DNA of 64,000 nt from Granulicella sp. (GCA_027339965.1 DAHWNL010000073.1:1113-65112); one strand, 5' to 3'; numbered from the stretch's first letter, positions 28,060 through 63,474 are shown. A program made the numbers and translations. Notes: generated from the letters alone by a model not told the origin.

Positions 28060-28968
28060 TCAGGCGGCGGGCCTTCTGGATTGCGCCTCATTCACATGTT
28101 CGACGAGCTTTGCCAGCACGCCGAAGTTCGGAATTTCGTCCAGCCTGCGGACGCCCAGACCGTCAAGAATCGCGTAGAACTCGGTTTCGGCGATCTCGGC
28201 TGCCACACGGCGCACCTGCGCCATGCCGCGGACGCCGCTCTCCATCCACTTCAGCACCTCTTGCTGGACGTGCTGGTTCGGAATGTCCCGTGTAGACCGC
28301 ACCTTTGCTACGGACCCCAGGATGTTGCTGTAAAGCATTTGCCCGAGATCCCGGCGGCACGCCTCGATCTTGCCCGTCACGCTTGCATCAAGCGGACCCT
28401 TTTGTACGGCGGCCGTCCCGTTGCCATTCCCCTTCCGGGCTGTCCCATTCTGGGCAGGCGCTCGCCGCTCGCACTCGGGCAGCGCCCAGGACGGGAGCGC
28501 CGGGATTTCCCGCGGGTGCTTGTATTCATCAAGATCCACCCACATTTCAGCGAAGTTGTAGAAGTAGCGGCCGAGGCCGAAACAGCTACAGGCCCGCTTA
28601 AACGCCTGTGCTTCCGCCGACGTCATTGCATTTTCATCGTCTGCCCACTCCTCGCCGCTCCCGCTGTGCATTCCGACGCCGGGGATCGATACGACGCAGG
28701 TAACCAGCACCTTTCCTGTCTGGATGGGCTTGTCCTTCTTAATACGGGTGATCGGAGAGACGGTGTGGACTGCGTATTCCCGTGTCCAACCGCTCGCGGT
28801 GAAGATGCTGTTGAGGCGGTCCGTGTAGGCCCGCGGATCGGCATAGGGCGTCACGCGGCCTTTTCGGCCGTCTCTCGAAGTGGCTGCGACCAGCCACTTC
28901 ACATCTTTCGAAGCGAATGGTTCCTCCAGACGCACGAGTGCTTCTGCGGCTGTTTGCGCATTTTCCAT
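28060..28968 (-). CDS. Rad52/Rad22-like single-strand annealing protein
   Basis: 'LEEPFASKDVKW...TPYADPRAYTDRLNSIFTASGWTREY' matches the Rad52-family N-terminal pattern. Confidence 0.65.
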   Translation of the reverse strand: MENAQTAAEALVRLEEPFASKDVKWLVAATSRDGRKGRVTPYADPRAYTDRLNSIFTASGWTREYAVHTVSPITRIKKDKPIQTGKVLVTCVVSIPGVGMHSGSGEEWADDENAMTSAEAQAFKRACSCFGLGRYFYNFAEMWVDLDEYKHPREIPALPSWALPECERRAPAQNGTARKGNGNGTAAVQKGPLDASVTGKIEACRRDLGQMLYSNILGSVAKVRSTRDIPNQHVQQEVLKWMESGVRGMAQVRRVAAEIAETEFYAILDGLGVRRLDEIPNFGVLAKLVEHVNEAQSRRPAA

Positions 28969-30420: not shown

Positions 30421-30636
30421 TTAACTCAAAACGTGCGCGATGGCCCTTCGCAGTTCCTCCGGGTCGTATCCATTCCCGGTGTAGCGAAAACACCTTCCTT
30501 CAGCGTCGAGGTTCAGGTATCGGCGCGTATCGATGTGCTTGTACAGGTAGAGTTCGCCGGAGCGGCCCATGAACATGAAGTGCTCGCACAGTTTCGGTCC
30601 GAGCACCTGTTCCAACGGCGCCCAATCGGTCGTCAT
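30421..30636 (-). CDS. small hypothetical protein
   Basis: Trimmed to the ATG at 30636, which forms an ATGA overlap with the upstream membrane-protein gene. Confidence 0.45.
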   Translation of the reverse strand: MTTDWAPLEQVLGPKLCEHFMFMGRSGELYLYKHIDTRRYLNLDAEGRCFRYTGNGYDPEELRRAIAHVLS

Positions 30637-30971: not shown

Positions 30972-30997
30972 TTCCTCTCCCTCTCCGAAGGTTCAAT

Positions 30998-31309: not shown

Positions 31310-31935
31310 GCGGACACCTCAACCAGCTGCGGCATCGGCGCTGCCTCCAGCAGATGCGAATGACGGCACCCGCAACAGCACACAGCCTCGGTCACTTTCA
31401 TTGTTGCTTCGGTCCAGAGCGGCCCGGGCGACCCCGGTTCGCCGCTTCGGGTCAGGAAGTGCGGTGTGGCGCCGCCGCGGAATGCCGCATCCTTCCCCCA
31501 CAACTCGGTTTCCAGAAATCCGTTGCGGCCGAGAAAGAGAATCGCGCTTCGTAGTTCCGCGCGCCTGCCGTCCTTTTGTTCGAGCCAATGCGTGGTGATC
31601 AGCAGATCGTAGGTGTTCTCAAAGCGGAACATCTCGACGCGAACGAATTCATCGCCGACGATGACAGCATGCATGCCGTTCGGGAGGAAGTTCTGGACCC
31701 GTTGCAGCCAGGGGACTGCGCAGCCGTCTACACCGACGAAGCCGACGTAGTGGCCCAGGAGTTCCACCGCTCCTCCCGATTCCTCGCCACGAATCTTCCA
31801 TGCTTTCGCATGCTGCTGGTAAACGATGTCCAACTGCGGCCGGCAGCGGATGCCAGTCTTCCGGATTTGCTCCCGAGTCTCTGCGGGGAGCGCCAGTCCA
31901 CGCCGCGCAATCATGGTCAGCCGACTCTCCTTCAC
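31306..31935 (-). CDS. hypothetical protein with C-terminal CCCGC cluster
   Basis: Start trimmed from 32106 to the GTG at 31935 (AGGGAGG 5 nt upstream). The ATG at 31914 is an alternative. Ends '...VCCCGCRHSH...'. Confidence 0.5.
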   Translation of the reverse strand: MKESRLTMIARRGLALPAETREQIRKTGIRCRPQLDIVYQQHAKAWKIRGEESGGAVELLGHYVGFVGVDGCAVPWLQRVQNFLPNGMHAVIVGDEFVRVEMFRFENTYDLLITTHWLEQKDGRRAELRSAILFLGRNGFLETELWGKDAAFRGGATPHFLTRSGEPGSPGPLWTEATMKVTEAVCCCGCRHSHLLEAAPMPQLVEVSA

Positions 31936-31949
31936 GTTCACCTCCCTGT

Positions 31950-33014
31950 TTACCGCCGGGTCTGTTTGGGTATGGGCTGACCCAGTGCCTCGCGGATCAT
32001 CTCGCGCGAGCATCCGGCCCAGCATCTGTAGAACTGGGGATTGGCCACCGAAATCGCCAAATTGTCCCGCGCGCGATCGCGTCCCTGTTGTGCGCAGGAC
32101 GGACATTGCGTCCAGTAGTTGCCGCTCCGCTTGAATCGAACCTTGACGTGCTGGAGAATCTGAAAGCCGGCATGCGCAACATTGGACGGCGGAACTTGCT
32201 TTGCCACCCGGCCGCAGACGGATTCCGGAATCGACACGCCTTGCGTGAATGTTTCGAGTTCCGCCGCGGTGAGCCGCTTCACCGACCGGAGATACGCGAT
32301 TTGCTCGGCGAGATTGCTGGGCGCATCCTCAAACCAGTAGCGGTGCATGTTGGCGCGGTGGATGCCGAGTGGCCCGCGAATGGCGTTCCCGTACTCTGAT
32401 TCGCCGATCTCATCCTGGCGCGGAAAGACCTCGATACCGTCCACCTGCCGGAACGTTCCTTTGATCGGAACGTCGAGGCGGAGAGCCAGACTATATATAT
32501 AGGTGCGGCAGAGCCGGGCGGGTAATGGCCGCTCGCAGAGGATCCAGAGGTGCGCGCCGCGCCGCGACATCTCGACGACGGCGTGAACCCCGTCCTGTTC
32601 CAGTTCCCACTTGAGGGTCCGGAGGTCGCGGTAAGCACCTTCGTAGTCGGCATCGATAGCCACCCATTTTGAACACTGCGTCTCCGGATTGATGGCATAG
32701 AGGCCGATTGTCAGTTCCCCGGCCAGGTGCCTCTGGACCACTACGGGGTCGAGCGCCATTCGCTCTTTTGTCTGCTTATTCCGCGCCTGGTAGAAGTAGT
32801 ACTTGCCCGAGTGTTCATCTGGCCGGTCCGTTTGCCGCGTATAAGCCCGCCGGTTCACAAACCATGCCATGTATTCGGCCGCCTGGCCGACCGTAGTCGG
32901 CAGGATCTCCGGCTGCGGTCGCGGCGCCTTCCACGTGCCAACAAGTTGAGCCATGGCTGGTGCTCCCTTCCGGTCAAGCTGTGCTGTTGTAGCCCGGTTC
33001 CAAAACTCGGTCAA
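31950..33014 (-). CDS. archaeo-eukaryotic primase (AEP/PrimPol)-like protein with C-terminal zinc-ribbon
   Basis: AEP-like motifs 'IGLYAI', 'VAIDADY' (DxD) and 'SRRGAHLWIL' (sxH). C-terminal 'CPSCAQQG...CWAGCS'. Confidence 0.6.
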   Translation of the reverse strand: MTEFWNRATTAQLDRKGAPAMAQLVGTWKAPRPQPEILPTTVGQAAEYMAWFVNRRAYTRQTDRPDEHSGKYYFYQARNKQTKERMALDPVVVQRHLAGELTIGLYAINPETQCSKWVAIDADYEGAYRDLRTLKWELEQDGVHAVVEMSRRGAHLWILCERPLPARLCRTYIYSLALRLDVPIKGTFRQVDGIEVFPRQDEIGESEYGNAIRGPLGIHRANMHRYWFEDAPSNLAEQIAYLRSVKRLTAAELETFTQGVSIPESVCGRVAKQVPPSNVAHAGFQILQHVKVRFKRSGNYWTQCPSCAQQGRDRARDNLAISVANPQFYRCWAGCSREMIREALGQPIPKQTRR

Positions 33015-46630: not shown

Positions 46631-47397
46631 TGTCCACCTCCTATTCGGTTCAACAGTTGCTGATTGAGGTTTTGCATGTTGGTTGTCGATTGCTTCAGAA
46701 CCGCATCCCGGTGAGCAAGCTCGATGGCTGCCTCGCGCAGCTGATAGGCGAGCAGCTTCTGTTGCATGGCGATGCTGGCAAGCTCGGCCGTTCGCGCTTC
46801 GGCCGCAACCATATCCGCGGTGCCAGGAGCCGTCGTCTCGGCCTGGTCTTCGATCTTCTGGGCCGCTTGAAGCATCGCCTGTGTCGCCTGGTCGGCGGCC
46901 ATCGATTGTTCGGTTGCATCCCTGGCGGTTGCGTCTTCCATGTCCATCATTTGGAGATTGAGCTGTGGCGCTGCCCCGATTGCAGGCTGCGCTCCGTACT
47001 CCGTCGCGTAGCTCTGACTGATGTCAGGAATCTGGCCGCTCTGCGCACTGAGAATTTCCGACTCAAAACTCCTCGATGTCGGCAGAATGGCGCTGTTGAC
47101 CCGGATGGCGAAGACGCTGTTCATCCACCCCCGGTAACTGGCCTTGATCGTAGCGATGTAGTTGCGCGTTTCCTCGGTCAGGGCCACCGGCCAGAGAGCC
47201 TGTTGCTCTGTTTGAAGGACCTCGCCGCGAACCCGGTTTATGTCACTCAAAGCGCCACCAATGGGCCCGGTGATTGTTCCCAAAATCGCAGAGAAGAGTC
47301 CTCCGAACTGCGCATAGGCGCCAGTCGGGACGAGAAGGGCCAGCAGCAGGATGGCGCTGCGGGTGAAGGCTATCCGCTCGGAACGGGCTTTTCTCAT
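46627..47397 (-). CDS. TrbJ/VirB5-like secreted protein (paralogue 2)
   Basis: Signal peptide and C-terminus '...STTNMQNLNQQLLNRIGGGQ', parallel to the neighbouring gene. 4-nt overlaps on both sides. Confidence 0.45.
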   Translation of the reverse strand: MRKARSERIAFTRSAILLLALLVPTGAYAQFGGLFSAILGTITGPIGGALSDINRVRGEVLQTEQQALWPVALTEETRNYIATIKASYRGWMNSVFAIRVNSAILPTSRSFESEILSAQSGQIPDISQSYATEYGAQPAIGAAPQLNLQMMDMEDATARDATEQSMAADQATQAMLQAAQKIEDQAETTAPGTADMVAAEARTAELASIAMQQKLLAYQLREAAIELAHRDAVLKQSTTNMQNLNQQLLNRIGGGQ

Positions 47398-50138
47398 ACC
47401 AGTTCCTCCTCAAACGAGACTTCGGCTTCCGACGCGTCCGAGTTGCGCTGATGGGGCTCCGGCTTCGGGGACCTTTTCCCAACTTCTGTACCCAACCGGC
47501 TTACTTCCCCTGAACGCTCCTCGGGCAATTCGGGCACCTCCGAAAGACCGTTCGGAAACGTTCTCGCCAGTTCCTCGAAGGCTTTGAGCCAACTCATTTC
47601 GCTGTGTGTCGACAGCCACCACTGCCGGTACCAGCGTTCCCGCGGATAGGTCGTCAGCAGCCAGTACTCGATCGGCGTGGGCACAATGTAGAGACTGTGC
47701 GTGGTCTCTGCCTTCTCTCCAATGACGATCAGGAACTCGCTTTTCCTGCCCTTTTCTGTCATCCCCAGCGTCTTCACCCGGTTGAGCGTGGTCTCGTTCA
47801 GGTGAACGAAGTGACGTAGTACGTCGAAGTTGCCCTTTTGCCGGCCGATCAGCTTGATCGCGGTCGTGGCGAGGATGGCGCCGCCGAACTCGTTGGGTTT
47901 GTCCGGCGTGCCGGTGAAGTCTTCGACCGCCTGCGAGATGCCCCACACACAGGCATTGCGTTTCCTGGCCGTGCGGAACAACTGCACGACAACCGGGGCT
48001 AGACTCGGCGACTGGAGCAGCGCCCAGCACTCATCGAGCACGGTAATGCACCGCTTGTTCGTCTTGCCCTGGGCACGTCGCGTCGTCGTGTAGGCAATCA
48101 GCAGGCTCATCGCCACCTCGAGCTTCGGATCGTCCTTCAACTGCTCAACGTTGAAGTAGAGCCACGGCGTCGTCATGTCGATGGTTGTGTGTGTATCGAA
48201 GAGGCGCGCATACATCCCGTTGTTCACCCAGGCGCGCAGCTTCGCCGCGGCGATCCGCGCCATTTCGTTTACGTGGGGATTCTTGTCGTCGTCGTAATAG
48301 TTCTGGAGTTCGTCGTAGAGGTCGCTGTAAAGGGGGATCGGGTTATCCATTCGCATCTGCGCCCGCGCGTAGGTCTTGCGGATGGCGTTCATGATCAGGT
48401 TGTCGAGCAGGTCCGTGTCCCCTTCGCCGCTGTCGCCGATCATGTATCGCGTCAGGTTTTTGAGGAAGGACAGGTGATCGTTCGAAGGTTCCGTCTGTCC
48501 CGGTTCGAGATCGAAGGGATTGATCGTCTGACGGCTGTCGAGAGACATGGTGATCATCTCGCCGCCCATGAAACCGACCGCATGGTAGTAGCTGTCGCCC
48601 CGCTCGATGATCGACACCTGCACGTCCTGCCGCGCGCAGATCAGAAGCATCTTTCCGACGAGCACGCTCTTGCCCGTTCCCGAGGTTGCGGCGATGATTG
48701 CGTTGGCGTTTTCGAGTGCCGGATCGAAGGGTGAGAAGGGCAGCAGCTGCCTGTAGGGCGTCTCGAACAGCATCAGCGGCGAGCGATTTGTCCCGGACCA
48801 GGGAAGCTCCAAAGGCAGAAGGTCGGCGCCGTGCGGGGTGAGCAGGTCGAGGTCGCGCCGGTCGTCCTCGGCGAGCCCCGGCAATGTCGAAAGATAGATG
48901 CGGCGGGTTGCAAGCGTCTCCGTGAGCCCGCGCGCGCCGTTCATATGCGCGACGACATGGAGCACCTGCTGACGCCGGTTCGCCAACTCCCGTTCCGCTT
49001 TCTCGTATTGCTCGGCGGACCACGCGGGGGCCGAAGTGCGGATTCCAATGATCATGCCCACACGTGCGGTCTTGACCGAATTCGCGATCAACTCCTGCTG
49101 GATCTGAATCAATTCGTGCGTCGCCACCTGGGCCGTAACGTCGACGCGAAGATTGCCCTTCGAATCTTTCTGCGCCGCCTGCATCTTGCGCAGCTTCTTC
49201 TTGTATTTGTCGAGAACGGCCCTTTGGTCGGGAATCGATACGTTCGTCGAGATGACGACGGGAAAACCGATCGTCATCAGCTGCCGCAGTATGCCTGGAT
49301 ACGTCCCATCGGGAGGCGCGTTCAGGCTGATGAAGCTCCAGAGCAGGCCGTCGATATTGATGTAGCTCTCGGTCTGCCCCAGAATGCTGACCGTTGTGGC
49401 GCGCTCGCGAGGGGAGATGTAGCGGGTCTCAGCCGGATGCGCATGGAGCGGCTTCCGGTCGGGGTCCATCGGACGCATTGCCCGCTTCACTTCGAGAAAG
49501 AGGTCGCCATCCGAGATGCGTTCAGGCCCGAGGCCGCCGGCCTTCATCGCGGACTCGATGCCGGCGATGAGCGACTCGAACTCGGCGACGGTGTCCTGGT
49601 GCTCCTTCCGCGACTTCTCGACAGCCTTGGTAACGGACAGAGTGAAGCCCCCATGCGCCCGCCGGCGATCCTCTTTGCTCATCGGCGCTCCGCCTGCGAG
49701 CAACGTACGCTTGTGCTTTGCCGGATCCCAGATCAGGTAGACTGCCGCAATCCGCGTGAGGTAGGTGCCCTGCTTTTCCTTCTCCGACCAGACTGCAAGA
49801 CGCTGCTCGTCGAGCGCCTGAACCTCCGCGTTCTCACAACGCGATTCGGTGCGGTACTGATCGAGCAGGCCGTTGAGGCTCTCGACGACCTCGTAACGAA
49901 ACTGGAGCCGCATGCTCTGTTCCGGCATGGCGCGGAGCAGGGATTCAAGAACGCTCTTTGCTTCATTCCGTTCATCGTCATCGCCGAAATAGGTCATGGC
50001 GCCGGCAACGCGGAATCCGGCGACATAGCACCCGTCCGTGCGAACCATCACGTTATCGAGAAAATCGCGGATCTTCAGCAGTTCGCATACCGCCGGGTCT
50101 TCAAGAGAGCGTTCATGCTGTGCGCGGGTTTTGGGCAT
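47394..50138 (-). CDS. virB4: VirB4/TrbE-family conjugal transfer ATPase
   Basis: 914 aa with Walker A 'ATSGTGKS' and Walker B 'ITVLDECW'. Confidence 0.9.
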   Translation of the reverse strand: MPKTRAQHERSLEDPAVCELLKIRDFLDNVMVRTDGCYVAGFRVAGAMTYFGDDDERNEAKSVLESLLRAMPEQSMRLQFRYEVVESLNGLLDQYRTESRCENAEVQALDEQRLAVWSEKEKQGTYLTRIAAVYLIWDPAKHKRTLLAGGAPMSKEDRRRAHGGFTLSVTKAVEKSRKEHQDTVAEFESLIAGIESAMKAGGLGPERISDGDLFLEVKRAMRPMDPDRKPLHAHPAETRYISPRERATTVSILGQTESYINIDGLLWSFISLNAPPDGTYPGILRQLMTIGFPVVISTNVSIPDQRAVLDKYKKKLRKMQAAQKDSKGNLRVDVTAQVATHELIQIQQELIANSVKTARVGMIIGIRTSAPAWSAEQYEKAERELANRRQQVLHVVAHMNGARGLTETLATRRIYLSTLPGLAEDDRRDLDLLTPHGADLLPLELPWSGTNRSPLMLFETPYRQLLPFSPFDPALENANAIIAATSGTGKSVLVGKMLLICARQDVQVSIIERGDSYYHAVGFMGGEMITMSLDSRQTINPFDLEPGQTEPSNDHLSFLKNLTRYMIGDSGEGDTDLLDNLIMNAIRKTYARAQMRMDNPIPLYSDLYDELQNYYDDDKNPHVNEMARIAAAKLRAWVNNGMYARLFDTHTTIDMTTPWLYFNVEQLKDDPKLEVAMSLLIAYTTTRRAQGKTNKRCITVLDECWALLQSPSLAPVVVQLFRTARKRNACVWGISQAVEDFTGTPDKPNEFGGAILATTAIKLIGRQKGNFDVLRHFVHLNETTLNRVKTLGMTEKGRKSEFLIVIGEKAETTHSLYIVPTPIEYWLLTTYPRERWYRQWWLSTHSEMSWLKAFEELARTFPNGLSEVPELPEERSGEVSRLGTEVGKRSPKPEPHQRNSDASEAEVSFEEELV

Positions 50139-50494: not shown

Positions 50495-50953
50495 TTACGC
50501 CACCCCCGCCGTCCCGGCCGCGATGAAGTGCTCCATCAGGCGCATCAGGCCCGACACGCATAAGCAGGCCCCGCCGGCGACAAAATGCCTGATCCAGTCG
50601 TCGCCGATATAGAGCCGCTCGAAGAATCCGCCCAGCCCGAGCACGGCGCGTGCAATCTCGATTCCTCCGTAGACAGGAAGAATCACATTGCCAACCCAGT
50701 CGGCGAGGCAGAGAATCGCCGCCCAGTACTGCGTCGTTCCCGAGCCCTGGCTCGCGAAGTCCTCGGCCAGCCTCAGAAGACCGGAGACCGACAAGGCACT
50801 CATCGTCCCGGCGATGTAGGGCTCGATGTGGTAGCCGCGCGAATACTTGAAGATGCCAAGAGCCAGAATCAGCACGGCGAGTATGGGCATGACAGCATTG
50901 CCCACCCAGTTGGTCAGCCCCAGCATCCCGGCGTCGAATGAGCCGCCATTCAT
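50495..50953 (-). CDS. VirB2/TrbC pilin-like protein with internal duplication
   Basis: Two repeats of 'NWVGN..(I/L)P' followed by a '(V/L)SGL(L/M)RL.E.F' hydrophobic hairpin. Confidence 0.45.
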   Translation of the reverse strand: MNGGSFDAGMLGLTNWVGNAVMPILAVLILALGIFKYSRGYHIEPYIAGTMSALSVSGLLRLAEDFASQGSGTTQYWAAILCLADWVGNVILPVYGGIEIARAVLGLGGFFERLYIGDDWIRHFVAGGACLCVSGLMRLMEHFIAAGTAGVA

Positions 50954-52148: not shown

Positions 52149-52529
52149 CTACCCGATTGCCTGGCCTTGTGCGATGAAGTACTCGATAAGCCGCAGGATG
52201 CCGGAAACGCAGATCAAACCGCCTGCGGTCATGGCGGAAGGGAGCCAGCTGCGGCCACTGCGCCACTGAAGGATGGTTGCGACGACGGCGATACCGGCGC
52301 CCACCGGGCAGATCACGTTGCAAAGCCAGTTGACGGCGTTGAGAAACGCACCTTCCGGCTGCGCCGCGGTCTGGCCCTGGACGGCCTGGCCCATCGCCGG
52401 CGTGGTGCCGAGGTTTTGAGCCAGGCTGGCGCAGGGCGCCAGAACGGCCGCTCCGATACAGGAAGCGAGCAGGAACGCCAGCACCTGCTTGCGTCCGGCG
52501 CGCACTGTTCGCATGAACGACTGGATCAT
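52149..52529 (-). CDS. VirB2/TrbC-like pilin precursor
   Basis: Long signal peptide ending 'ASLAQN', then two hydrophobic helices 'VNWLCNVICPVGAGIAVVATIL' and 'GGLICVSGILRLIEYFIAQG'. Confidence 0.55.
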   Translation of the reverse strand: MIQSFMRTVRAGRKQVLAFLLASCIGAAVLAPCASLAQNLGTTPAMGQAVQGQTAAQPEGAFLNAVNWLCNVICPVGAGIAVVATILQWRSGRSWLPSAMTAGGLICVSGILRLIEYFIAQGQAIG

Positions 52530-52734
52530 GGACTTGCCTCCTTGACGGGAAACCGTCGCCGAAGAAAATCACACGGTTTGTCGATTCGTGCAAACGAGCG
52601 ACTACGGCTTGCCCAAATGTCCTATGGACCGATGTCACGATGGGCGCATGAAGAAGATCGACCTGATTCCGTCTATAAGGGTGATCTGATTTAGCTTCTT
52701 ATAAGGATGGTGTGGCGGGCATCGAATTCGGGAG

Positions 52735-52868
52735 ACGTAGCCCCCGAGTTTTTCGACAGAAGCCTGGTACGCAGCTTTTCTCCTTTCGAAAAACCTCATC
52801 GTCGGCCCGGCACTCTCCCAGTTTGGCCACGCTTTGCTTAACTTGATATCGCTTGTAGCAGGCTATTG
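52735..52868 (+). repeat. hairpin repeat copy A (long form)
   Basis: Core GTTTTTCGACAGAAGCCTGGTACGCAGCTTTTCTCCTTTCGAAAAACCTCATCGTCGGCC starts near 52748. The right extension '...GCTTAACTTGATATCGCTTGTAGCAGGC' is shared with copy C. Coordinates are +/- a few nt. Confidence 0.8.
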
Positions 52869-52970
52869 GCGCGGACGTTCGACTGTTTGGGCAGGGCACT
52901 GAGCCAGCTAACTTTGGGTTAAGGTTGCCGGAGTCGGTACAATCATTGACGTAAAAAACGCAAATGACAA

Positions 52971-54233
52971 ATGAATACTGTCGAATATCAAAACGCACTC
53001 GACCTTGGGCTCGGCAGAGCCGTCCAGCACCTGCGCAACCATGACGGTCATCCCTATCGCGAAATCATTTTGGACGCTTGTCTACATAACAAGGCTTACG
53101 ATCCACAGGTCGAGGGCAGCCGAGCGCGATACATGCTCGACATCCTCCTCAGCTCTGGGGAAGCGTCGTTCTATGCCGATCGAGTCATTGGCTCGCTCTG
53201 GGATGAAGAACACGACTGGGATACGCCGCAGAGATACGGAATCACGAGGCTGTTGGCCCAAGGAGGAGACAATTCCGCCCGTGAAGCTATGTATTCGGCA
53301 TTCACGGCTAAGCAACCATACGCGAGTGACATTGCAGTCGAATTCATAAATCTCGACGGCATACAAGGCCTGATATTCGTGGCCAGCCAGATCGGCGGGC
53401 GGCTGGCGAGAAATGCCGATGATTGGGAAGACGACTTCCTTCTGTCAATAGCGGGAGACGTTTGCGGCGAAGAAGTTGCGGTTACTGCACTCAAAGAGGC
53501 AGGCGCCACGGACCCAAACGTAAAGGCCTACTTGGCTGCCGTCGAGAATAATCGGGATTTGCGGGCGAAGGCTCCGAGAACTGATCCGAAGACAATGTCC
53601 TACGATCAAATCCGGTCATGTATCGAGTCGAAACGTCAAATCGGCTTTCTAGCAGAATGGGCAAAATGGGCGAGCGATTCTGACCTGGAGCGTGCCGCGC
53701 ACGACCTCATTAAGGAGAAGGACCTTGAAAACCTGAAGTGGTTTCTCGTTCTGTTTAGAAAGAGGCATTTTCCGCTGGAAGTCGATCATCTGCTCAAGCT
53801 CTTGGAATTGCCAGACGGTCCTGTTCCATTTCATGCACTTCGAGCTCTCGCAAACATCGAAGACGAGCGTGTTCGGAAGCTCGCATTCGAAGTCCTCGAG
53901 ATGGATTCAAGGCGCGGGTGGGCAATTGATCTGCTGGCCAGGAATTTCCGAGGCGGGGACCACGCAGTGGTGGAAGGTTGGTGCGATTCAGAACACAATC
54001 CGGGCATCGTCAATGCATTCGATCGGAGCCTGAGGGAGTTTTTTTCCGCCAATCCGAACGCGGAGATCGAGGTACGATTGCTTAACAAAATGTATGAGAA
54101 GGAACCTTGCGCCCATTGCCGCTCATACATTGTAGAGCGGTTGCTGAAGTTGGATAGCCTGAGTGAAAGGCTGAGGAGCGAATGCGAAGTTGACTCGTAC
54201 GCAGACACAAGGTCATTGGTGAAGGCGCGTTAG
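52971..54233 (+). CDS. hypothetical helical-repeat (HEAT/ARM-like) protein
   Basis: 420-aa ORF in the AT-richer cargo region. The helical-repeat impression is by eye only and no catalytic motif was seen. Confidence 0.55.
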   Translation: MNTVEYQNALDLGLGRAVQHLRNHDGHPYREIILDACLHNKAYDPQVEGSRARYMLDILLSSGEASFYADRVIGSLWDEEHDWDTPQRYGITRLLAQGGDNSAREAMYSAFTAKQPYASDIAVEFINLDGIQGLIFVASQIGGRLARNADDWEDDFLLSIAGDVCGEEVAVTALKEAGATDPNVKAYLAAVENNRDLRAKAPRTDPKTMSYDQIRSCIESKRQIGFLAEWAKWASDSDLERAAHDLIKEKDLENLKWFLVLFRKRHFPLEVDHLLKLLELPDGPVPFHALRALANIEDERVRKLAFEVLEMDSRRGWAIDLLARNFRGGDHAVVEGWCDSEHNPGIVNAFDRSLREFFSANPNAEIEVRLLNKMYEKEPCAHCRSYIVERLLKLDSLSERLRSECEVDSYADTRSLVKAR

Positions 54234-54311
54234 GGTCGCGGCTAACGCTCTGGGGGCTTAACCACAGACACTGACCTTTGTAGAGTCTTCGTTTTTCCCG
54301 AGCGAGCCAGT

Positions 54312-54383
54312 TGGGCCCCCCGCTTGTTTTTCAACAAAAGCCTGGTGCGCAGCTTTTCTTCTTTCGAAAGACCTCATCATCGG
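54312..54383 (+). repeat. hairpin repeat copy B (short form)
   Basis: GGGCCCCCCGCTTGTTTTTCAACAAAAGCCTGGTGCGCAGCTTTTCTTCTTTCGAAAGACCTCATCATCGG. Confidence 0.8.
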
Positions 54384-54425
54384 TTTAGGCATATTCAGAT
54401 ACGAACTTCCTCAGCGCCTTCCTGC

Positions 54426-55592
54426 CTAGGATTCCCGGTTGAGAATGTCGAGGTAACTGCCGTAGAGAAACAAGCGGCCTCTTCGTTTTCCGCTGGACTC
54501 CCGCAGGATGCCGGCTTCAATCATGCGATCCACCGCCGCGGATGCGGTTGGGAAACTTACCTCCGTCTCGCGGGCTGCGTTCCTGATCGAGAAAAGCGGG
54601 TTGGCTTGGGCATACCTATAGATCAGGAGCGCAGAAACTGCGCCGCGGCCGAAGCGTTCGATCTTTTCCTTGTCCGTATTGAAGAGTTTGTCGATGTTGC
54701 CGGCCGTTCGCGCCGCCTGATTTGCGGTGTCGCGGACACCTTGAAGGAAGAAGTCGAGCCACGCCCTCCAACCGTCGCTTTCTCGCGTTTCATTGAGCCG
54801 GTCATAGTAAAGCCGCCGATGCTTTTTGAAGAAAAGGCTGAGATAGAGAACGGGTTCGCGCAGCACCTCCTCGGCACAAAGCATGAAGGTGATGAGTAGC
54901 CTGCCCACTCTGCCATTGCCGTCCAGAAAAGGATGAATCGATTCGAACTGTGCATGTACAAGGCCAGCCTTAATCAGCAGGGGAAGCGTTGAGCCCTCTT
55001 GATGGATGAATGTCTCCAGTTGGCCCATGCAGTCCGTAACATATTCAGGTGGAGGTGGAACGTACGCCGCGTTTCCGGGCCGAGTGCCGCCGATCCAATT
55101 CTGGCTTTTTCTAAATTGTCCCGGCTGCGCGTGGCTGCCGCGTCCCTTAGCCAGAAGCACCTCGTGAATTTCGCGGATGAGACGAAGAGAGAGGGGAAAG
55201 CCGGCCCGCATGCGTTTCAGACCATGATTCAGGGCCGCCACATAGTTGGAGACTTCCTGCACGTCGTCCAGCGGAACGCCGGGCGTTTCTGCGTTTTCAT
55301 AAAGCAAAAGATCGGAGAGAGAAGATTGCGTCCCCTCGATCTGAGACGAGAGCACGGCCTCCTTGCGAACGTAGGAGTAGAGGAAGAGCTTGAGGTCAGG
55401 GAGAGAAGAGGTTGTGCCATCCAGCCGACCGATGGCCTGATTCGCTTCGGCAAGGATGGCTTGAAGCGATGCCAGATCAAGTGCCCGCTGATTTGGCGGC
55501 AAAGGCGGGGGAACGAACGCGCGGACCCTCTCACCGGAAACGGTTGAAATCACGTAACGGTTTCTGGGAGCCGTGTTGGGGTGTCTGGGCAT
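54426..55592 (-). CDS. Fic-family protein (AMPylator-type) with N-terminal inhibitory motif and C-terminal wHTH
   Basis: Fic motif 'HPFLDGNGRVGRLL' and an upstream 'SSQIEG' matching (S/T)xxxE(G/N). Confidence 0.9.
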   Translation of the reverse strand: MPRHPNTAPRNRYVISTVSGERVRAFVPPPLPPNQRALDLASLQAILAEANQAIGRLDGTTSSLPDLKLFLYSYVRKEAVLSSQIEGTQSSLSDLLLYENAETPGVPLDDVQEVSNYVAALNHGLKRMRAGFPLSLRLIREIHEVLLAKGRGSHAQPGQFRKSQNWIGGTRPGNAAYVPPPPEYVTDCMGQLETFIHQEGSTLPLLIKAGLVHAQFESIHPFLDGNGRVGRLLITFMLCAEEVLREPVLYLSLFFKKHRRLYYDRLNETRESDGWRAWLDFFLQGVRDTANQAARTAGNIDKLFNTDKEKIERFGRGAVSALLIYRYAQANPLFSIRNAARETEVSFPTASAAVDRMIEAGILRESSGKRRGRLFLYGSYLDILNRES

Positions 55593-55721
55593 GCTTAAAC
55601 TAGCTCACCTGCTATTAAAACATAATTCCATTCACTTTAATAATAAAATCCGCTATTAAAGGATGCCCCATTATCGGCCGGCGGTAGCACCCTAGCCGCA
55701 GCCAAGCAGCGGGAGTTTCTC

Positions 55722-55850
55722 AAGCGGCCCGCCCGTCTTTCGACAAAAGCCTCGTACGCAGCTTTTCTTGTTTCGAAAAACTTCATCTTCGGCCTGGCGC
55801 TCTATCAGGCCGGCCCGGCTTGGCTTAATTGATATCGTAAGCAGGCCGAT
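55722..55850 (+). repeat. hairpin repeat copy C (long form)
   Basis: GGCCCGCCCGTCTTTCGACAAAAGCCTCGTACGCAGCTTTTCTTGTTTCGAAAAACTTCATCTTCGGCC plus the extension '...GCTTAATTGATATCGTAAGCAGGC'. Confidence 0.8.
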
Positions 55851-55871
55851 GAATGCTGTAGATTCAGAGGC

Positions 55872-56150
55872 ATGATTGGGAGCATGCTTCGGCAGTCAGA
55901 ATGGGATGAAGATCGCTTAGAAGCGGCTCACAAGCATTCCATCTTCAACCGTGAAGAACTGCAAAGAAGTTCTCTGTGCGGATGCTTTTACTGCTTTGCG
56001 ACCTTCTCCCCCGCAGAGGTATCTGAATGGATTGATGAAGGCCAGACAGCGGTATGTCCGAAGTGTCCGATCGATTCGGTAATCGGTTCCGCTTCTGGAT
56101 TTCCGATCACGCAAGATTTCCTGCACTGCATGCATGACAAGTGCTTCTAG
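55872..56150 (+). CDS. small Cys-rich (zinc-ribbon-like) protein
   Basis: 92 aa with 'CGCFYCFATF...AVCPKCPIDSVIG'. Confidence 0.5.
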   Translation: MIGSMLRQSEWDEDRLEAAHKHSIFNREELQRSSLCGCFYCFATFSPAEVSEWIDEGQTAVCPKCPIDSVIGSASGFPITQDFLHCMHDKCF

Positions 56151-56189
56151 TGCGGATTCGCGTACGTTGAAGGGCAAGCCCCACTTCAG

Positions 56190-56732
56190 CTACTGTACCC
56201 AGGTCTCTCCCCTGCCAAATTCTTTCTCACCCGCAAGGAGTTGCACATCAGGTCGGTAATACGAAACCACATCGATAAGGTGATTTAGGCAGATAAGTTT
56301 GTAATGCAGAATCTCTTGGATATGGCCGCCCGTATCGCGCATTACGTGGTCGAGGAAATGCGATCGCGTGTAGACGCGCAGAATCTTCCCTGTGTAGACC
56401 TCGTCGTCGTAGCCATTCGGCGCATTTGACCCTACGAGTTCCTCGGTCACCAGGTAGGCGAGGTAGTGCTTCCACGATAGCTGGAACACCTTGCATCCCT
56501 CGACGGACTCTATGGGGTGTGCTCCTGCTAATAGCTGTGCCAGTTCAGGTCGATCACTTGCGACCACTGCTGCCTCGTTCACGACAGCCTCTTCCACAAC
56601 AATTCTCAAAGAATTGAAAACGTTCTTGTTCGGCTCGGAGATTTGGCGGAGATCGACATACCTCGCAGCGTTCAATCGCTCGATTACTTCGGAATCAGGC
56701 ACTCGCAAGGGGTTCTCTGACATCTCACCCAT
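56190..56732 (-). CDS. hypothetical protein
   Basis: 180-aa ORF in the cargo region. No motif recognised. Confidence 0.5.
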   Translation of the reverse strand: MGEMSENPLRVPDSEVIERLNAARYVDLRQISEPNKNVFNSLRIVVEEAVVNEAAVVASDRPELAQLLAGAHPIESVEGCKVFQLSWKHYLAYLVTEELVGSNAPNGYDDEVYTGKILRVYTRSHFLDHVMRDTGGHIQEILHYKLICLNHLIDVVSYYRPDVQLLAGEKEFGRGETWVQ

Positions 56733-56814
56733 ATCGTAACGTGTCTACCACAGGCTAACAGGCGATCGACAGCTCAAACTCGTCAACGAGCGTCTTTCCC
56801 AAGTGGGGCCGACT

Positions 56815-56888
56815 GGGCCTCCACCCTTGTTTTTCAACAAAAGCCTGGTACTCAGCTTTTCTTCTCTCGAAAAACTTCACCATCGACC
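56815..56888 (+). repeat. hairpin repeat copy D (short form)
   Basis: GGGCCTCCACCCTTGTTTTTCAACAAAAGCCTGGTACTCAGCTTTTCTTCTCTCGAAAAACTTCACCATCGACC. Confidence 0.8.
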
Positions 56889-56937: not shown

Positions 56938-58242
56938 TCATGGTTGTTCTGCATCCGCAAATTGGCCGATACCCATACCCGCGCGTGGAATGTGAATCGC
57001 CTTGTCCGAGTTCTGGGCCTTTGCTGCCGCAGCCTTCTCGAACACGAGATAGATCTCTGTCCCGGCAGGAACACTCACGACGATGTGCTCAAGGGTGAGC
57101 ATCCTCATGATCTGCTCATCGCCGGCATTCCCGATGTTGTTTGCGACCTGCATTCGCATCAGATCTCCTTCACTGAAGGAGTTGTTCACGCTGGGTGCGC
57201 CAACAAGCATCGCCGCAGTCTCACCAATTCCGGACAAGGAACGGATCAACATGTTCTTTCCACGTTGACGTCCAGTTACAGTCCCCTGTATGGCCTGGAG
57301 GTTCATGTTGGCGGCCACAGCGTCAATTGGGATAGTGGATCCATCAGGGGATTCGAGAGATGAGAATTCGATATTCATCAATCCAGATGGATCCGCCTGA
57401 ATGATTTTGCCAACGGCCCGGGCTCCGGCCGGAATGATCACCTCTCCATCGCGCTCGTAGTTGTACTCGATCACGGCAACGACAGGCGCGCGCACAGCCG
57501 TGGTAGCCATCGATTCAAGGCGCGCTGCCACATGGTAACCGGGGGCCAGGCCGAGATTGTCGACGGGCGGCGCCGAGTTCTGCACCTGCGGATGAACTGC
57601 CGTCTGTTCATGCGCCGTGAAAACCAGGGATGGAGAGTCCAGCGCATCCTCCGCCTTCTTTTGTGCCTGCTGATTTACCGAGTTCTCGCCGCCATAAGGC
57701 GGAGGCGTCCATCGAGATTGCGCATTGGGAGCGGTGTTCGGCTCATCAAATTTCGCCACCTCGCCGAGAGTTCTGGGATTCTGGGATGGATTTACTCCGG
57801 CCCCGCCGCGGGACAGGGCCTGTTTAGTACCAGGCGATTTTGTCCGCTCGATGTCGGTGGCATCGACGGTGCCGGGTTCCGGCGCAGCATTGGGAGATGG
57901 CTTCACCGCGTTATTGGGCAGAAGATTTGTGCTGGAGCCTGCAGTCCGCGATTGTCCGAGATTGGGCCTGCTGGCTTGAGAGAGCAGCCTTTTCCTGAAT
58001 GTTCCTTTGGTCGAAAGGAAGGCGACCATCCCAATTCCAAACAGAGCGATCGCGCCGAAGACAATCAGCATCGTGGCCAGATTGCCGCCGCCTGAACCGC
58101 GACTCTTCTTCAGCACAAATGGCCGCTTGCTTACCGATCCCAGCGGCGTCTCGTTCTCCTCTGAGGGAGCAACTCCGGCGTCTACCTTCTGGACTGTTTC
58201 ATCCCTCTCTACTGTCTGTGCCTGACCCATGGTCCACCTCAT
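56938..58242 (-). CDS. virB10: VirB10/TrbI-family T4SS protein
   Basis: N-terminal TM helix, Pro-rich linker, and a C-terminal beta-barrel region 'VIEYNYERDGEVIIPAGARAVGKI...IQGTVTGRQRGK'. Confidence 0.85.
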   Translation of the reverse strand: MRWTMGQAQTVERDETVQKVDAGVAPSEENETPLGSVSKRPFVLKKSRGSGGGNLATMLIVFGAIALFGIGMVAFLSTKGTFRKRLLSQASRPNLGQSRTAGSSTNLLPNNAVKPSPNAAPEPGTVDATDIERTKSPGTKQALSRGGAGVNPSQNPRTLGEVAKFDEPNTAPNAQSRWTPPPYGGENSVNQQAQKKAEDALDSPSLVFTAHEQTAVHPQVQNSAPPVDNLGLAPGYHVAARLESMATTAVRAPVVAVIEYNYERDGEVIIPAGARAVGKIIQADPSGLMNIEFSSLESPDGSTIPIDAVAANMNLQAIQGTVTGRQRGKNMLIRSLSGIGETAAMLVGAPSVNNSFSEGDLMRMQVANNIGNAGDEQIMRMLTLEHIVVSVPAGTEIYLVFEKAAAAKAQNSDKAIHIPRAGMGIGQFADAEQP

Positions 58243-61982: not shown

Positions 61983-62028
61983 AATGGGGGTGGCCACTTG
62001 TTCCCTCCACACAGAAATTGAGGAACAA

Positions 62029-63384
62029 ATGGGAATCTCGTACCAGAAAGGATGGGTCCGGCCACGAGGGAAGAAATGGCATGGCTGTTTCCGCCGCACC
62101 GAGCTTGACCCTGAAACCAATGCACCCAAACTCGTCACTCACTCGTTCGTTCTGGGCTTCAGATCTGAGATGTCGAAGTCCCAGGCGCGAGAGAAACTGG
62201 AAGACGAGATCGCCAAACTGGGCGGACGATCGACGGGAGCTCCATCCGTTGTCAACGGCGCGGTCACCTTCGAATGGTTCGTCAAAAACCGCTACCTGCC
62301 GCTGAAGGAGGGGGACTGGAGAGAAGAGACTGCCAAGATCAAGAAGTACCTGATCCAGGCAGATCTCATCGATGTATTCGGGGACTATCGCCTTGAAAAC
62401 TTCGACAAGGTAATTCTGCAGACCCATCTCAACAGGCTGGCCAAAATCCATTCACGAGACCGAGTGCTTCAGATCCGTTCCTATATGCGTGCCATCTTTG
62501 CGGAAGCCGTCGACCAGGACTTCATTCCGAAAGATCCCGCGCGCAAAGTCAGGCCTCCCGCAAACCTGCGCGAGGTCGATAAGACGACGTTGAGCTGGGA
62601 TCAGCTTCGCGCCGCCCTGGAAAAGCTCGGAGACATCAGTCTTCGGGACTGGATCCTGATGAAGCTCGACATGTCGAACGCGCTGCGGCCCAGCGAACTC
62701 TTTCCACTGCGGTGGCGCTGCTTCCTTGAGGACAACCGTGTCCTGGATATTCAGGAGACTGTTTACAAAGGGAAGCTTCGGCCCTACGGAAAGACCAAAT
62801 CCAGTCTCACCAAGGTTCCGATCGCCGACGTCCTGGCGAACGAAATCGCAGAATACCGGGAGGAGTGCAGGAAACAGGGGAAAGACACGTCCCCGGACGG
62901 TTTCATGTTTCCGGGGCGCTTCGGCAGACCGATGGACTCGAGCAACTTTCGCCACCGAGTCCTTCACAAGCTTGCGCGAGAACTGGAACTGCCAAAGCTG
63001 ACGTTCCAGGTCATCCGCCGCACCATCGCCACCCTGGGAAAGACCAAGGGGCACCCCAAGGACATCCAGGGCCTGATGCGGCACAGCCGGCTGGCGACGA
63101 CCATGGAAGTCTACATGCAGTCGTTGCAGCGGGAGGTCCGCACGGCGATCAACTCGATTCACGACGAGTTGATGTCGACCGGGATCAACGGCTCAGAACC
63201 GCAGCCGCCAACGATGCCTGAAGCAGGAACAGACCGCGGACTAGAAACATCTGGACGCGACCTCAAGATGGAACGGAAGCGCAAGCAGAAAGGAGAGGAT
63301 GGGGGAAAGAAGATGCCGTCGCGCTGCAAGATTCTTCCATTTGCGGGCAAAATGCGGGCAAACGGTTTGGAAGGTTTCCGCTAA
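62029..63384 (+). CDS. int: tyrosine-type site-specific integrase
   Basis: 'ALRPSELFPLRW' (Arg I) and 'GLMRHSRLATTMEVYMQ' (HxxR ... Y). Start trimmed to the ATG at 62029. Confidence 0.9.
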   Translation: MGISYQKGWVRPRGKKWHGCFRRTELDPETNAPKLVTHSFVLGFRSEMSKSQAREKLEDEIAKLGGRSTGAPSVVNGAVTFEWFVKNRYLPLKEGDWREETAKIKKYLIQADLIDVFGDYRLENFDKVILQTHLNRLAKIHSRDRVLQIRSYMRAIFAEAVDQDFIPKDPARKVRPPANLREVDKTTLSWDQLRAALEKLGDISLRDWILMKLDMSNALRPSELFPLRWRCFLEDNRVLDIQETVYKGKLRPYGKTKSSLTKVPIADVLANEIAEYREECRKQGKDTSPDGFMFPGRFGRPMDSSNFRHRVLHKLARELELPKLTFQVIRRTIATLGKTKGHPKDIQGLMRHSRLATTMEVYMQSLQREVRTAINSIHDELMSTGINGSEPQPPTMPEAGTDRGLETSGRDLKMERKRKQKGEDGGKKMPSRCKILPFAGKMRANGLEGFR

Positions 63385-63398
63385 GTTGTTGGTGGATT

Positions 63399-63474
63399 TG
63401 GTGGACCTGGTCGGGATCGAACCGACGACCTCTTCCATGCCATGGAAGCGCGCTCCCAGCTGCGCCACAGGCCC
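63399..63474 (-). tRNA. tRNA-Ala (anticodon GGC), CCA encoded
   Basis: The reverse complement folds by eye into a cloverleaf: GGGCCTG acceptor, anticodon stem CTTCC/GGAAG with loop ATGGCAT, and T-arm GTCGG-TTCGATC-CCGAC. It has the G3:U70 Ala identity pair and a 3' CCA. Confidence 0.9.

What the first reader, a model, noticed from the sequence alone, without database searches (positions are those of the whole stretch)
52735..56888. Cargo hotspot splitting the T4SS, delimited by four same-orientation copies of a nested-hairpin repeat
Four copies of a ~60-75 bp sequence lie at about 52748, 54326, 55735 and 56829. The consensus is GTTTTTCGACAAAAGCCTGGTACGCAGCTTTTCTTCTTTCGAAAAACYTCATC, preceded by a GGGCCYCC-type G/C patch. 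They fall between the VirB10 sub-operon and the pilin sub-operon, and nowhere else that I noticed. Each copy contains nested inverted repeats (GTTTTTCGA...TCGAAAAAC and AAAAGC...GCTTTT around a 10-nt loop). Two subtypes alternate. A and C share TCGACA and a ~60-bp right extension ending GCTTAA(C/T)TTGATATCG..GCAGGC just upstream of plus-strand genes. B and D share CTTGTTTTTCAACAAAAGCCTGGT. The DNA they bracket looks more AT-rich and carries unrelated genes in both orientations: a helical-repeat protein, Fic, a Cys-rich mini-protein and a 180-aa unknown. There is no recombinase inside. The pattern resembles serial cassette insertion at a structured att-like site. The arms do not match integron attC R-box consensus. 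Alternatively it could be an RNA-level element repeated along the operon transcript.
Basis: seen in the sequence. Interest (0 to 1): 0.72.

Follow-up and report, generated by a model that had tools for sequence, protein, structure and literature searches.

The report
Conserved repeat scaffolding an ICE cargo hotspot
Four copies of a strongly conserved non-coding repeat mark the boundaries of swappable accessory and defence genes wedged between two halves of the conjugation machinery of an Acidobacteria mobile element; the repeat family is real and apparently undescribed, but how it works is not settled.

Summary
Four same-orientation copies of a 47-nt core lie at 52748, 54326, 55735 and 56829 and nowhere else in the window. 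The same element, called R here, gave 254 nhmmer hits across the window and 94 related loci from Acidobacteriaceae genomes and soil metagenomes. R always has the orientation of the T4SS operon. It almost always lies between homologues of the 434-aa and 126-aa T4SS genes. It often forms ~85-nt tandem units, including at an empty site with no cargo (L087). Cargo between copies is hypervariable: 39 segments fall into 26 unrelated clusters, SoFic is the commonest, and none carries an integrase. Cargo differs between elements whose flanks are 84-92% identical. About 40 nt of the core are nearly invariant, non-coding and not homogenised within arrays. The inner hairpin is not supported. The outer helix has modest compensatory support between lineages. 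Sister ICE lineages carry other tandem repeats at the same position, and the junction is a hotspot even without R. Best reading: R is a native cis-acting module of the control region between the two sub-operons, and its repetition gives portable homology for PeSL-like cassette shuffling. An att-like recombination site is not excluded.

The parts
56829..56875 (-). R copy D, 47-nt core. It is the first unit after the stop codon of the 434-aa T4SS gene.
56745..56828 (-). 'beta' module attached to the 3' side of D in operon orientation. It is partial, and cargo starts after it.
55735..55781 (-). R copy C, 47-nt core.
55782..55837 (-). Leader plus a truncated 'ext' module on the 5' side of C in operon orientation.
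54326..54372 (-). R copy B, 47-nt core.
54240..54325 (-). 'beta' module attached to B (partial).
52748..52794 (-). R copy A, 47-nt core. It is the last unit before the leader of the 126-aa gene.
52795..52930 (-). Leader plus 'ext' module on the 5' side of A. It is homologous to ext copies in L001, L004 and about 30 other loci.
52530..52747 (-). Conserved 'gamma' leader between the last R and the 126-aa gene. This is 3'-flank class 2, seen in 24 loci.
56938..58242 (-). 434-aa T4SS-operon gene, the left anchor of the hotspot.
52149..52529 (-). 126-aa gene, the right anchor of the hotspot. It is the first gene of the sub-operon that leads to the VirB4-like gene at 47394-50138.
56190..56732 (-). 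Cargo: 180-aa protein with no family match. It is unique to this element in the sample.
55872..56150 (+). Cargo: 92-aa Cys-rich ORF with no family match.
54426..55592 (-). Cargo: Fic_N + Fic + wHTH protein, matching the PADLOC SoFic defence model (E = 1e-119). It is the commonest cargo of this hotspot and has its own A/T-rich leader.
52971..54233 (+). Cargo: 420-aa protein with a weak HEAT_2 match. It is unique to this element in the sample.
28060..28968 (-). ICE-encoded Rad52/22-family single-strand annealing protein. It is a candidate trans-acting factor for recombination between short repeats (inferred, not shown).
61984..63384 (+). Tyrosine integrase next to tRNA-Ala (63399-63474, -). It is the only recombinase found in the window.

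Best explanation
R is a native, orientation-specific cis-acting module of the non-coding control region between the two T4SS sub-operons of an Acidobacteriaceae ICE family. A unit is about 85 nt: a ~40-nt loosely conserved leader plus a 47-nt core. About 40 nt of the core are nearly invariant. The core is most likely recognised in a sequence-specific way. Either it is read on the sense-strand transcript, as a hairpin with a ~9-bp closing stem around a conserved ~29-nt loop, or it is bound as duplex DNA by an ICE-specified factor.

The intergenic region tolerates insertions, so accessory and defence genes accumulate there. R and its attached 'beta' and 'ext' modules are repeated and shared among related ICEs. 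They therefore act as portable homology. Homologous recombination between copies swaps, stacks and deletes cassettes. That recombination could be RecA-dependent or could use the element's own Rad52-type annealing protein. The result is arrays such as V434-R-[cargo]-R-[SoFic]-R-[cargo]-R-D126 in this window. In how it works this resembles the PeSL regulatory cassettes of T4-type phages.

Shown here: the anatomy, distribution, conservation pattern and boundary polymorphism. Inferred: the regulatory role and the recombination route.
For: (1) R is present without cargo. L087 reads V434 stop-R-R-R-leader-D126. L015, L016 and L020 carry three diverged R-like units at the same place, after a hairpin plus T-run that I read by eye as a terminator.

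(2) Of 159 adjacent R pairs, 101 are 78-92 nt tandems. Slippage or unequal crossing-over gives that pattern. Site-specific excision does not.

(3) All 254 nhmmer hits share the orientation of the operon.

(4) The core is about 86% identical between any two copies, against about 38% for the leader. Within-locus and between-locus identity are equal: 0.861 against 0.859. So each copy is individually constrained rather than homogenised.

(5) Variable positions are not 3-periodic, and the ORF through R is not conserved.

(6) Sister lineages have different tandem repeats or a palindrome at the same spot. The palindrome also sits about 50 nt upstream of another T4SS gene, which is typical of lineage-specific cis-regulatory sites.

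(7) The V434|D126 junction is a 0.5-9 kb hotspot across the superfamily, even without R.

(8) Elements with flanks 84-92% identical to the window (L001-L007, L021) differ in cargo. Homology breaks inside or next to R. Adjacent segments of L001 and L004 show mosaic identity, 99% against 93%.

(9) The ICE encodes a Rad52-family SSAP and an SSB.

(10) The outer helix shows compensatory change between lineages: at columns 17:53, U-A in 65 copies and G-C in 63. The covariation score is 0.191 against 0.119 for shuffles. Wobble pairs favour the sense strand, 127 against 65.
Against: No promoter, terminator or Rfam family matches R. No cognate binding protein or NusG-like factor was identified. The regulatory role therefore rests on position and conservation only.

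Copies several kb from the 126-aa gene are as conserved as the proximal one. That is not expected for a simple upstream operator.

R also occurs beside an ImmA/XRE pair in a second T4SS family whose VirB4 is only 22% identical, again next to variable DNA. This could mean R has a role in cargo movement itself.

Within the main family the helix shows no covariation.

Recombination between R copies was not observed directly.
Confidence: 0.5

Rival explanations
1. R is the recombination site of a cassette-capture system, like integron attC or Xer/dif modules. A recombinase acting in trans would recognise the conserved core, possibly folded as a hairpin, and would integrate and excise circular cassettes of the form R-beta-cargo-ext. 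Candidates are the ICE integrase, a host Xer-type enzyme or the relaxase. In this reading beta and ext are arm-type accessory sequences.
For: Direct repeats in one orientation flank nearly every cargo segment, and the cargo lacks recombinases. Beta and ext are always glued to R on opposite sides, as P' and P arms would be after integration. The beta end is sharp across at least 7 different cargos. The start of the leader, the G/C patch, is duplicated on both sides of cargo. All copies are equally conserved wherever they lie. R sits at the edge of variable DNA in a second, distant T4SS family. The core has a 6-10-6 imperfect dyad, and a variable closing stem surrounds a conserved centre.
Against: No dedicated recombinase lies in the hotspot, in 53 cargo protein clusters, or elsewhere in the window apart from the tRNA-Ala integrase. 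The boxes do not match attC: GTTTTTC/GAAAAAC against GTTRRRY/RYYYAAC. There is no dif-like 11-6-11 match. Left boundaries vary: 2-25 nt after the core for the SoFic and gamma flanks, about 135 nt for beta. Tandem 85-nt empty units and R at empty sites are not products of site-specific excision. Polymorphisms lie inside the putative crossover centre. Some insertions are plain IS events. The hotspot exists without R.
Confidence: 0.22
2. R is an iteron-type array of duplex-DNA binding sites for an ICE protein, such as a transfer-gene activator or repressor, a partition/centromere protein or an architectural protein. The cargo association would then be incidental.
For: R forms tandem direct repeats with a period of about 80-86 nt, roughly 8 helical turns. 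Sister ICEs carry lineage-specific repeat families at the same site, including 35-nt iterons and a palindrome that is also found upstream of another T4SS gene. Arm complementarity can equally reflect paired half-sites.
Against: No cognate DNA-binding protein was identified. Spacing varies from 78 to 92 nt. Copies separated by kilobases of cargo remain conserved. The wobble bias favours a single-stranded reading.
Confidence: 0.18
3. The repeats are 5' stubs or leader peptides of a small gene, M(K/R)FFERRKAAYQAFVEK..., duplicated with each insertion.
For: All four window copies translate in one frame on the operon strand to similar 44-56 aa ORFs. An in-frame ATG precedes 28 of 30 beta-type copies.
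Against: The stop falls 1-105 codons after the core, with frameshifts among otherwise alignable copies. An ATG is absent in about 40% of tandem copies and in 7 of 8 ImmA-context copies. The tandem period is not a multiple of 3. Third codon positions are as invariant as the others, and variable sites are not 3-periodic.
Confidence: 0.03
4. R is a selfish REP/MITE-like repeat that spread by itself.
For: It is short, partly palindromic and multicopy.
Against: It was never found outside the ICE junction in about 1.5 Mb of flanks from 160 loci. It always has one orientation. No target duplications were seen. It is absent from IMG/VR and PLSDB.
Confidence: 0.03

Closest known systems
PeSL (promoter-early stem-loop) mobile regulatory cassettes of T4-type phages (PMC2839356, PMC4122927)
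   Same: Both are short conserved intergenic repeats, all in the direction of transcription, interspersed among non-essential variable genes in a hyperplastic region. Differences between close relatives end in the repeats. The proposed mechanism is homologous recombination between repeats.
   Different: PeSLs are defined as a sigma-70 early promoter plus a terminator stem-loop. R matches neither consensus. R also occurs in ~85-nt tandem arrays and carries two extra conserved arms, beta and ext. The host is an ICE, not a phage. Mini-circles have not been shown.
Integron attC sites / CALIN arrays
   Same: Both are same-orientation structured sites that separate recombinase-less cassettes. A hairpin is possible.
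   Different: R has a highly conserved sequence rather than a conserved structure. Its R-box consensus fails. No IntI is present. Cassettes are multi-gene, run in both orientations and have their own promoters. Empty tandem units occur.
Variable-region hotspots of SXT/R391 and other ICEs (own knowledge: Wozniak et al. 2009; Garriss et al. 2009)
   Same: Cargo and defence genes sit at a fixed intergenic position between conserved transfer genes. The element encodes a single-strand annealing recombinase that can promote hybrid formation.
   Different: SXT hotspots are not delimited by a repeated element. Here a conserved repeat family brackets and subdivides the cargo.
dif modules flanked by pdif (XerC/D) sites in Acinetobacter plasmids (PMC6449649, PMC13141974)
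   Same: Both have discrete accessory modules without their own recombinase, bounded by copies of a short conserved site and shuffled among related replicons.
   Different: pdif sites are 28-bp XerC-6-XerD sites in alternating orientation. R is 47 nt, always direct, and shows no recognisable Xer arms.

Membership tests
Integron attC / CALIN | Outer boxes R'' RYYYAAC and R' GTTRRRY | tested here: not met
   The arms are GTTTTTC...GAAAAAC, with pyrimidines and purines in the wrong places, in all four copies and in the 136-copy consensus.
Integron attC / CALIN | Conserved hairpin structure with poorly conserved sequence | tested here: not met
   The pattern is the opposite: about 40 nt are nearly invariant. 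The inner helix has no compensatory change. RNAalifold finds no consensus structure.
Integron attC / CALIN | Mostly single, promoterless, co-oriented ORF cassettes | tested here: not met
   Cargo runs from 0.7 to 9 kb, with 48 ORFs on + and 25 on -. SoFic has its own A/T-rich leader.
Integron attC / CALIN | IntI integrase nearby (complete integron) | tested here: not met
   The only tyrosine recombinase in the 64 kb is the tRNA-Ala-adjacent ICE integrase. CALINs lack IntI, so this feature alone is not decisive.
PeSL-type regulatory cassettes | Conserved intergenic repeats flanking variable genes, with indel endpoints in the repeats | tested here: met
PeSL-type regulatory cassettes | Composite of a sigma-70 promoter and a terminator stem-loop | tested here: not met
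   No promoter-like or terminator-like site falls on any R copy. Acidobacterial promoters may differ from the consensus scanned.
PeSL-type regulatory cassettes | Mini-circles formed by recombination between repeats | not testable with these tools
   This needs outward PCR or long reads on a culture or metagenome.
REP/BIME or MITE | Dispersed genome-wide in many unrelated intergenic regions | tested here: not met
   Hits lie only between the 434-aa and 126-aa homologues, or beside ImmA in a second ICE type. There are none in the other 10-kb flanks. A whole-genome scan of the host was not possible.
Xer/dif modules | 28-bp XerC arm, 6-bp spacer, XerD arm, with sites in alternating orientation | tested here: not met
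   All copies are direct. By eye there is no similarity to the conserved XerD arm. The acidobacterial dif consensus was not available, so the sequence part is weak.
ICE variable-region hotspot | Variable DNA at a fixed intergenic position between conserved core transfer genes, with the core genes intact | tested here: met
   The gap between the 434-aa and 126-aa homologues is 0.5-9 kb across loci with 37-90% identity.
Iteron / operator array | Tandem direct repeats in a regulatory intergenic region | tested here: met
Iteron / operator array | Cognate sequence-specific binding protein encoded by the element | not testable with these tools
   No candidate was identified by Pfam or NCBIfam among the ORFs scanned.

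The most novel reading that the evidence does not exclude
R, with its beta and ext arms, is the att site of a previously unknown integron-like cassette system carried by conjugative elements. A conserved-loop hairpin formed on single-stranded or transcribed ICE DNA would be recognised by an ICE or host recombinase. That enzyme would insert and excise recombinase-less defence and accessory cassettes between the two T4SS sub-operons, and the site would be shared by at least two T4SS families in Acidobacteria.
Probability: 0.18. Interest if true: 0.85.

Novelty: new variant of a known kind. Interest (0 to 1): 0.58.

Why it matters
Acidobacteria are among the most abundant soil bacteria, and their mobile elements are almost unstudied. 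This repeat family gives a sequence handle for finding a hypervariable cargo and defence hotspot in their ICEs. A search with a single 30-nt pattern recovered 80 loci. The cargo found there includes SoFic, reverse transcriptases, STAND NTPases, restriction modules and toxin-antitoxin genes.

It also offers a tractable case for a general question. Is accretion of accessory genes inside conjugation operons driven by ordinary recombination between reiterated regulatory sequences, as with the PeSLs of T4-type phages, or by a dedicated cassette-capture mechanism? If it is the latter, this would be a new gene-capture platform comparable to integrons.

Tried and rejected
- Small-ORF or leader-peptide reading: rejected, because frame, start and stop are not conserved.
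- Known RNA family: none at the gathering threshold, and only noise at E <= 5.
- Sigma-70 promoter or intrinsic terminator at R: none. Sigma-54 -24/-12 reading by eye: the -12 GC is absent.
- tRNA fragment or att duplicate of the ICE: tRNA-Ala shares only ACCAGG with R, which is expected by chance. No second copy of the tRNA 3' end lies in the window.
- NusG/RfaH-type factor with ops-like sites: no NusG paralogue among the scanned ORFs.
- CsrA site: the GGA core is absent (by eye).
- Concerted evolution as the cause of conservation: rejected, because within-locus identity equals between-locus identity.
- Covariation within the main family: none. At 33:65 the counts are G:T 77, G:C 34, A:T 16, A:C 7.
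- Recombinase hidden in the cargo: none in 53 cargo protein clusters.
- Similarity to plasmids or viral contigs: none.
- Literature on acidobacterial ICEs: nothing on this element.
- Assignment of the 434-aa and 126-aa proteins to VirB10 and pilin: no support from Pfam, NCBIfam or PDB sequence searches. Structure prediction was not run.

Full report
OBSERVATION

The 47-nt cores are A 52748-52794, B 54326-54372, C 55735-55781 and D 56829-56875. A 37-nt consensus with up to 3 mismatches finds only these four sites, all on one strand, against 0 expected. Half-motif searches find no further credible site in the 64 kb. G+C is 0.50-0.58 in the bracketed DNA and 0.58-0.65 in the flanks.

The T4SS genes are on the minus strand, so I describe the element in operon orientation. 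The core consensus is GGTTTTTCGAAAGAAGAAAAGCTGCGTACCAGGCTTTTGTYGAAAAAC.

WHAT SURROUNDS IT

The window carries an integrative conjugative element. Its identified parts are:
- a tyrosine integrase at 61984-63384 next to tRNA-Ala;
- an SLT transglycosylase, a VirB4-like ATPase, VirB8-like and CagX-like proteins, and a coupling protein;
- a weak MobC/Replic_Relax-like protein;
- a block with SSB, a Rad52-family annealing protein, RNase H, an AEP primase and a methyltransferase.

The hotspot lies between a 434-aa gene (56938-58242) and a 126-aa gene (52149-52529).

The cargo in this window is a 180-aa unknown, a 92-aa Cys-rich ORF, a Fic protein and a 420-aa protein with a weak HEAT match. The Fic protein matches the PADLOC SoFic defence model at E = 1e-119.

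THE REPEAT IS A FAMILY TIED TO ONE JUNCTION OF ONE ICE SUPERFAMILY

A protein-anchored scan of species-representative genomes returned 80 loci, almost all Acidobacteriaceae or Terriglobia MAGs. A 30-nt degenerate pattern returned 80 soil-metagenome loci, which is the cap, and none in IMG/VR. There is no PLSDB match.

nhmmer gives 254 hits across the window and 94 related loci, always in one orientation per locus and always that of the 434-aa gene. In every genome locus the copies lie downstream of the 434-aa homologue and never in the 10-kb upstream flank. In 62 of 80 metagenome loci the 434-aa and/or the 126-aa homologue is in the expected place.

The typical layout is V434-R-R-[cargo]-R-R-D126. 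L087 is an empty site, V434 stop-R-R-R-leader-D126, with the first R starting 3 nt after the stop codon. Of 159 adjacent R pairs, 101 are tandem at 78-92 nt and 39 enclose more than 400 nt of cargo.

Eight loci place R beside a convergent ImmA-like peptidase and XRE regulator pair. These belong to a second T4SS family whose VirB4 is only 22% identical, and R is again next to variable DNA.

BOUNDARY POLYMORPHISM

Elements whose flanks are 84-92% identical to the window carry different cargo, and homology breaks at R. Examples:
- L002 and L003 read V434-R-SoFic, without the 180-aa/Cys-rich segment.
- L021 reads V434-R-R-SoFic-R-R-D126.
- L001 and L004 carry other genes on either side of SoFic.

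The 39 cargo segments fall into 26 unrelated clusters and 53 protein clusters. SoFic is the commonest. Others include DDE transposases, a reverse transcriptase, nSTAND and DUF4062 NTPases, Mrr and ResIII nucleases, DUF4238, toxin-antitoxin and TetR/PadR regulators, a nitroreductase and a MacB/FtsX transporter. None is an integrase.

FINER ANATOMY

Each core is preceded by a loosely conserved ~40-nt leader (...GGGCCGAYGATGAGG), which gives the 85-nt unit. Two further non-coding modules are always attached to R:
- 'beta' is about 135 nt on the 3' side. It ends sharply at ...GGTTTCAGTGGACGAGTGACTCGGCGAT in front of unrelated cargos. In the window it accompanies copies B and D.
- 'ext' is about 140-190 nt on the 5' side in related loci and about 135 nt beside copy A. 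In the window it accompanies copies A and C, truncated beside C.

Cargo usually sits between beta and ext. SoFic instead follows R by about 25 nt and brings its own A/T-rich leader.

Some differences between relatives are ordinary IS insertions. L004 carries an element with 16-nt terminal inverted repeats and a TTAG duplication about 30 nt after R. L001 has a 1.9-kb insertion inside beta.

NOT CODING

On the operon strand the four copies translate to M(K/R)FFERRKAAYQAFVEK.... Across the family this ORF does not hold up:
- The stop lies 1-105 codons after the core, and alignable beta copies differ by frameshifts.
- The in-frame ATG is missing in many copies.
- The tandem period is not a multiple of three.
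- Variable columns are not 3-periodic.

STRUCTURE

Within the main family about 40 consecutive positions are nearly invariant. The few polymorphic stem positions do not covary: at 33:65 the counts are G:T 77, G:C 34, A:T 16 and A:C 7, and C:A occurs 28 times at 28:70. Single-copy folds disagree with each other, and their z-scores run from +1.5 to -2.6.

On 149 diverse copies:
- The outer helix is 74.7% paired and shows between-lineage compensation. At 17:53 there are 65 U-A and 63 G-C.
- The covariation score is 0.191, against 0.119 +/- 0.007 for shuffles and 0.04-0.135 for slid controls.

RNAalifold predicts no consensus structure. Arm complementarity exceeds the partner-shuffled controls: -4.59 against -3.85 +/- 0.26 kcal/mol, reached in 1 of 500 shuffles. 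G.T pairs outnumber A.C pairs 127 to 65, which favours the sense strand.

So a closing stem around a conserved ~29-nt centre is plausible, and the nested hairpin is not. Paired duplex half-sites would give the same arm covariation.

SELECTION, NOT HOMOGENISATION

Core identity is 0.861 within loci and 0.859 between loci. Leader identity is about 0.38 in both comparisons. Every copy, wherever it sits, is therefore individually constrained.

COMPARATIVE CONTEXT

The gap between the 434-aa and 126-aa homologues ranges from 0.5 to 9 kb across the whole superfamily, down to 37% identity. This holds even where R is undetectable.

Sister lineages carry other repeats at the same spot:
- L015, L016 and L020 have three R-like units (AAAGGAGAAAAAGYGYGTACYTSACTTTTGT) about 80-85 nt apart. 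They follow a GC-rich hairpin plus T-run, which I read by eye as a terminator. The scan tool did not flag it.
- L023, L025 and L028 have four to six 35-nt direct repeats.
- The L042-type lineage has a palindrome, GTGAGATG-N23-CATCTCAC. It lies about 300 nt upstream of the 126-aa homologue and also about 50 nt upstream of the 408-aa T4SS gene.

Lineage-specific reiterated motifs in front of transfer sub-operons are what cis-regulatory sites look like. This places R in that class by position.

MECHANISM

I commit, at about 0.5, to the following. R is a native cis-acting module of the inter-sub-operon control region. Its reiteration, together with beta and ext, supplies portable homology. Recombination across that homology swaps, stacks and deletes cassettes. 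It may be RecA-dependent or may use the ICE's Rad52-type protein. In how it works this resembles PeSL cassettes in T4-type phages. It is not a member of that family, because no promoter or terminator consensus is present.

Mosaic identity between L001 and L004, 99% next to 93%, and the abundance of tandem units fit this reading.

The main rival, at about 0.2, is a true att-like site. In its favour are the attL/attR-like placement of beta and ext, the sharp end of beta, the equal conservation of all copies and the presence of R in a second T4SS family. Against it are the lack of any recombinase, the variable left boundaries, R at empty sites, the tandem empty units and polymorphism in the putative crossover centre.

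A duplex iteron or operator reading gets about 0.18. It overlaps with the main explanation on function but treats the cargo association as incidental.

NOVELTY

I found no description of this element in Rfam, PLSDB, IMG/VR or the searchable literature. The phenomenon is a new variant of known kinds, namely ICE variable-region hotspots and repeat-mediated modular shuffling. It is not demonstrably a new mechanism.

Noticed in passing
L105, L112, L114, L121, L129, L147, L160 (e.g. L112:8812-10127): High-scoring R copies lie directly beside a convergent ImmA/IrrE-like metallopeptidase (HEIAH motif) and an XRE-type regulator. This is a different T4SS family, with VirB4 about 22% identical. Variable genes lie on the other side of R.
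   Followed up: partly
L008:14660-15200, L009:14100-14630, L085:7778-8200: In a diverged lineage two R subtypes alternate in ~160-nt super-units repeated three or more times with no genes between them. The subtypes are ...GTCAAAGAAGAAAAAYTGCGGACCAGGCTTTTGTTGCAA... and ...GGCAGGAAGAAAAAAGCGAGTACCAGGCTTTTGTCACATATCG....
   Followed up: partly
L015:11317-11350: A GC-rich 9-bp hairpin followed by TTTTCTT lies right after the 434-aa homologue and before three R-like units. It looks like an intrinsic terminator separating the two T4SS sub-operons in that lineage. The scan tool did not flag it.
   Followed up: no
L042:7981-8130; ~8920-8940 in about 30 loci (L034-L080): The palindrome GTGAGATG-N23-CATCTCAC recurs upstream of both the 126-aa and the 408-aa T4SS gene homologues in distant ICE relatives. 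It is a candidate operator or promoter element of transfer genes.
   Followed up: partly
L004:12173-13351: An IS element with a 320-aa transposase, inverted repeats GGAACCTCTGATCAAG / CTTGATCAGAGGCTCC and a TTAG target duplication is inserted about 30 nt after an R core. L001:11447-13371 is another insertion inside the beta module.
   Followed up: yes
window 26415-33014: A block typical of a conjugative leading region lies here, all on the minus strand: a DUF6094 methyltransferase, a Rad52/22-family annealing protein, RNase H, SSB and an AEP-TOTE primase.
   Followed up: partly
window 4817-13801: A heavy-metal and efflux cluster lies here: an outer-membrane factor, a CusB/HlyD-like fusion protein, a 1055-aa transporter, an ArsP permease, an FTR1-like permease and a cation-efflux protein. 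It may be further ICE cargo or flanking chromosome. The left end of the ICE was not located.
   Followed up: no
window 50495-50953 and 52149-52529: The 126-aa and 152-aa proteins of the sub-operon cross-hit each other at about 36% identity in tblastn, so they appear to be paralogues.
   Followed up: no
window 15441-15890, 21450-21875, 17107-17841: Two PIN-domain ORFs and a Prok-E2_D (ubiquitin-conjugating-like) ORF lie outside the T4SS region.
   Followed up: no
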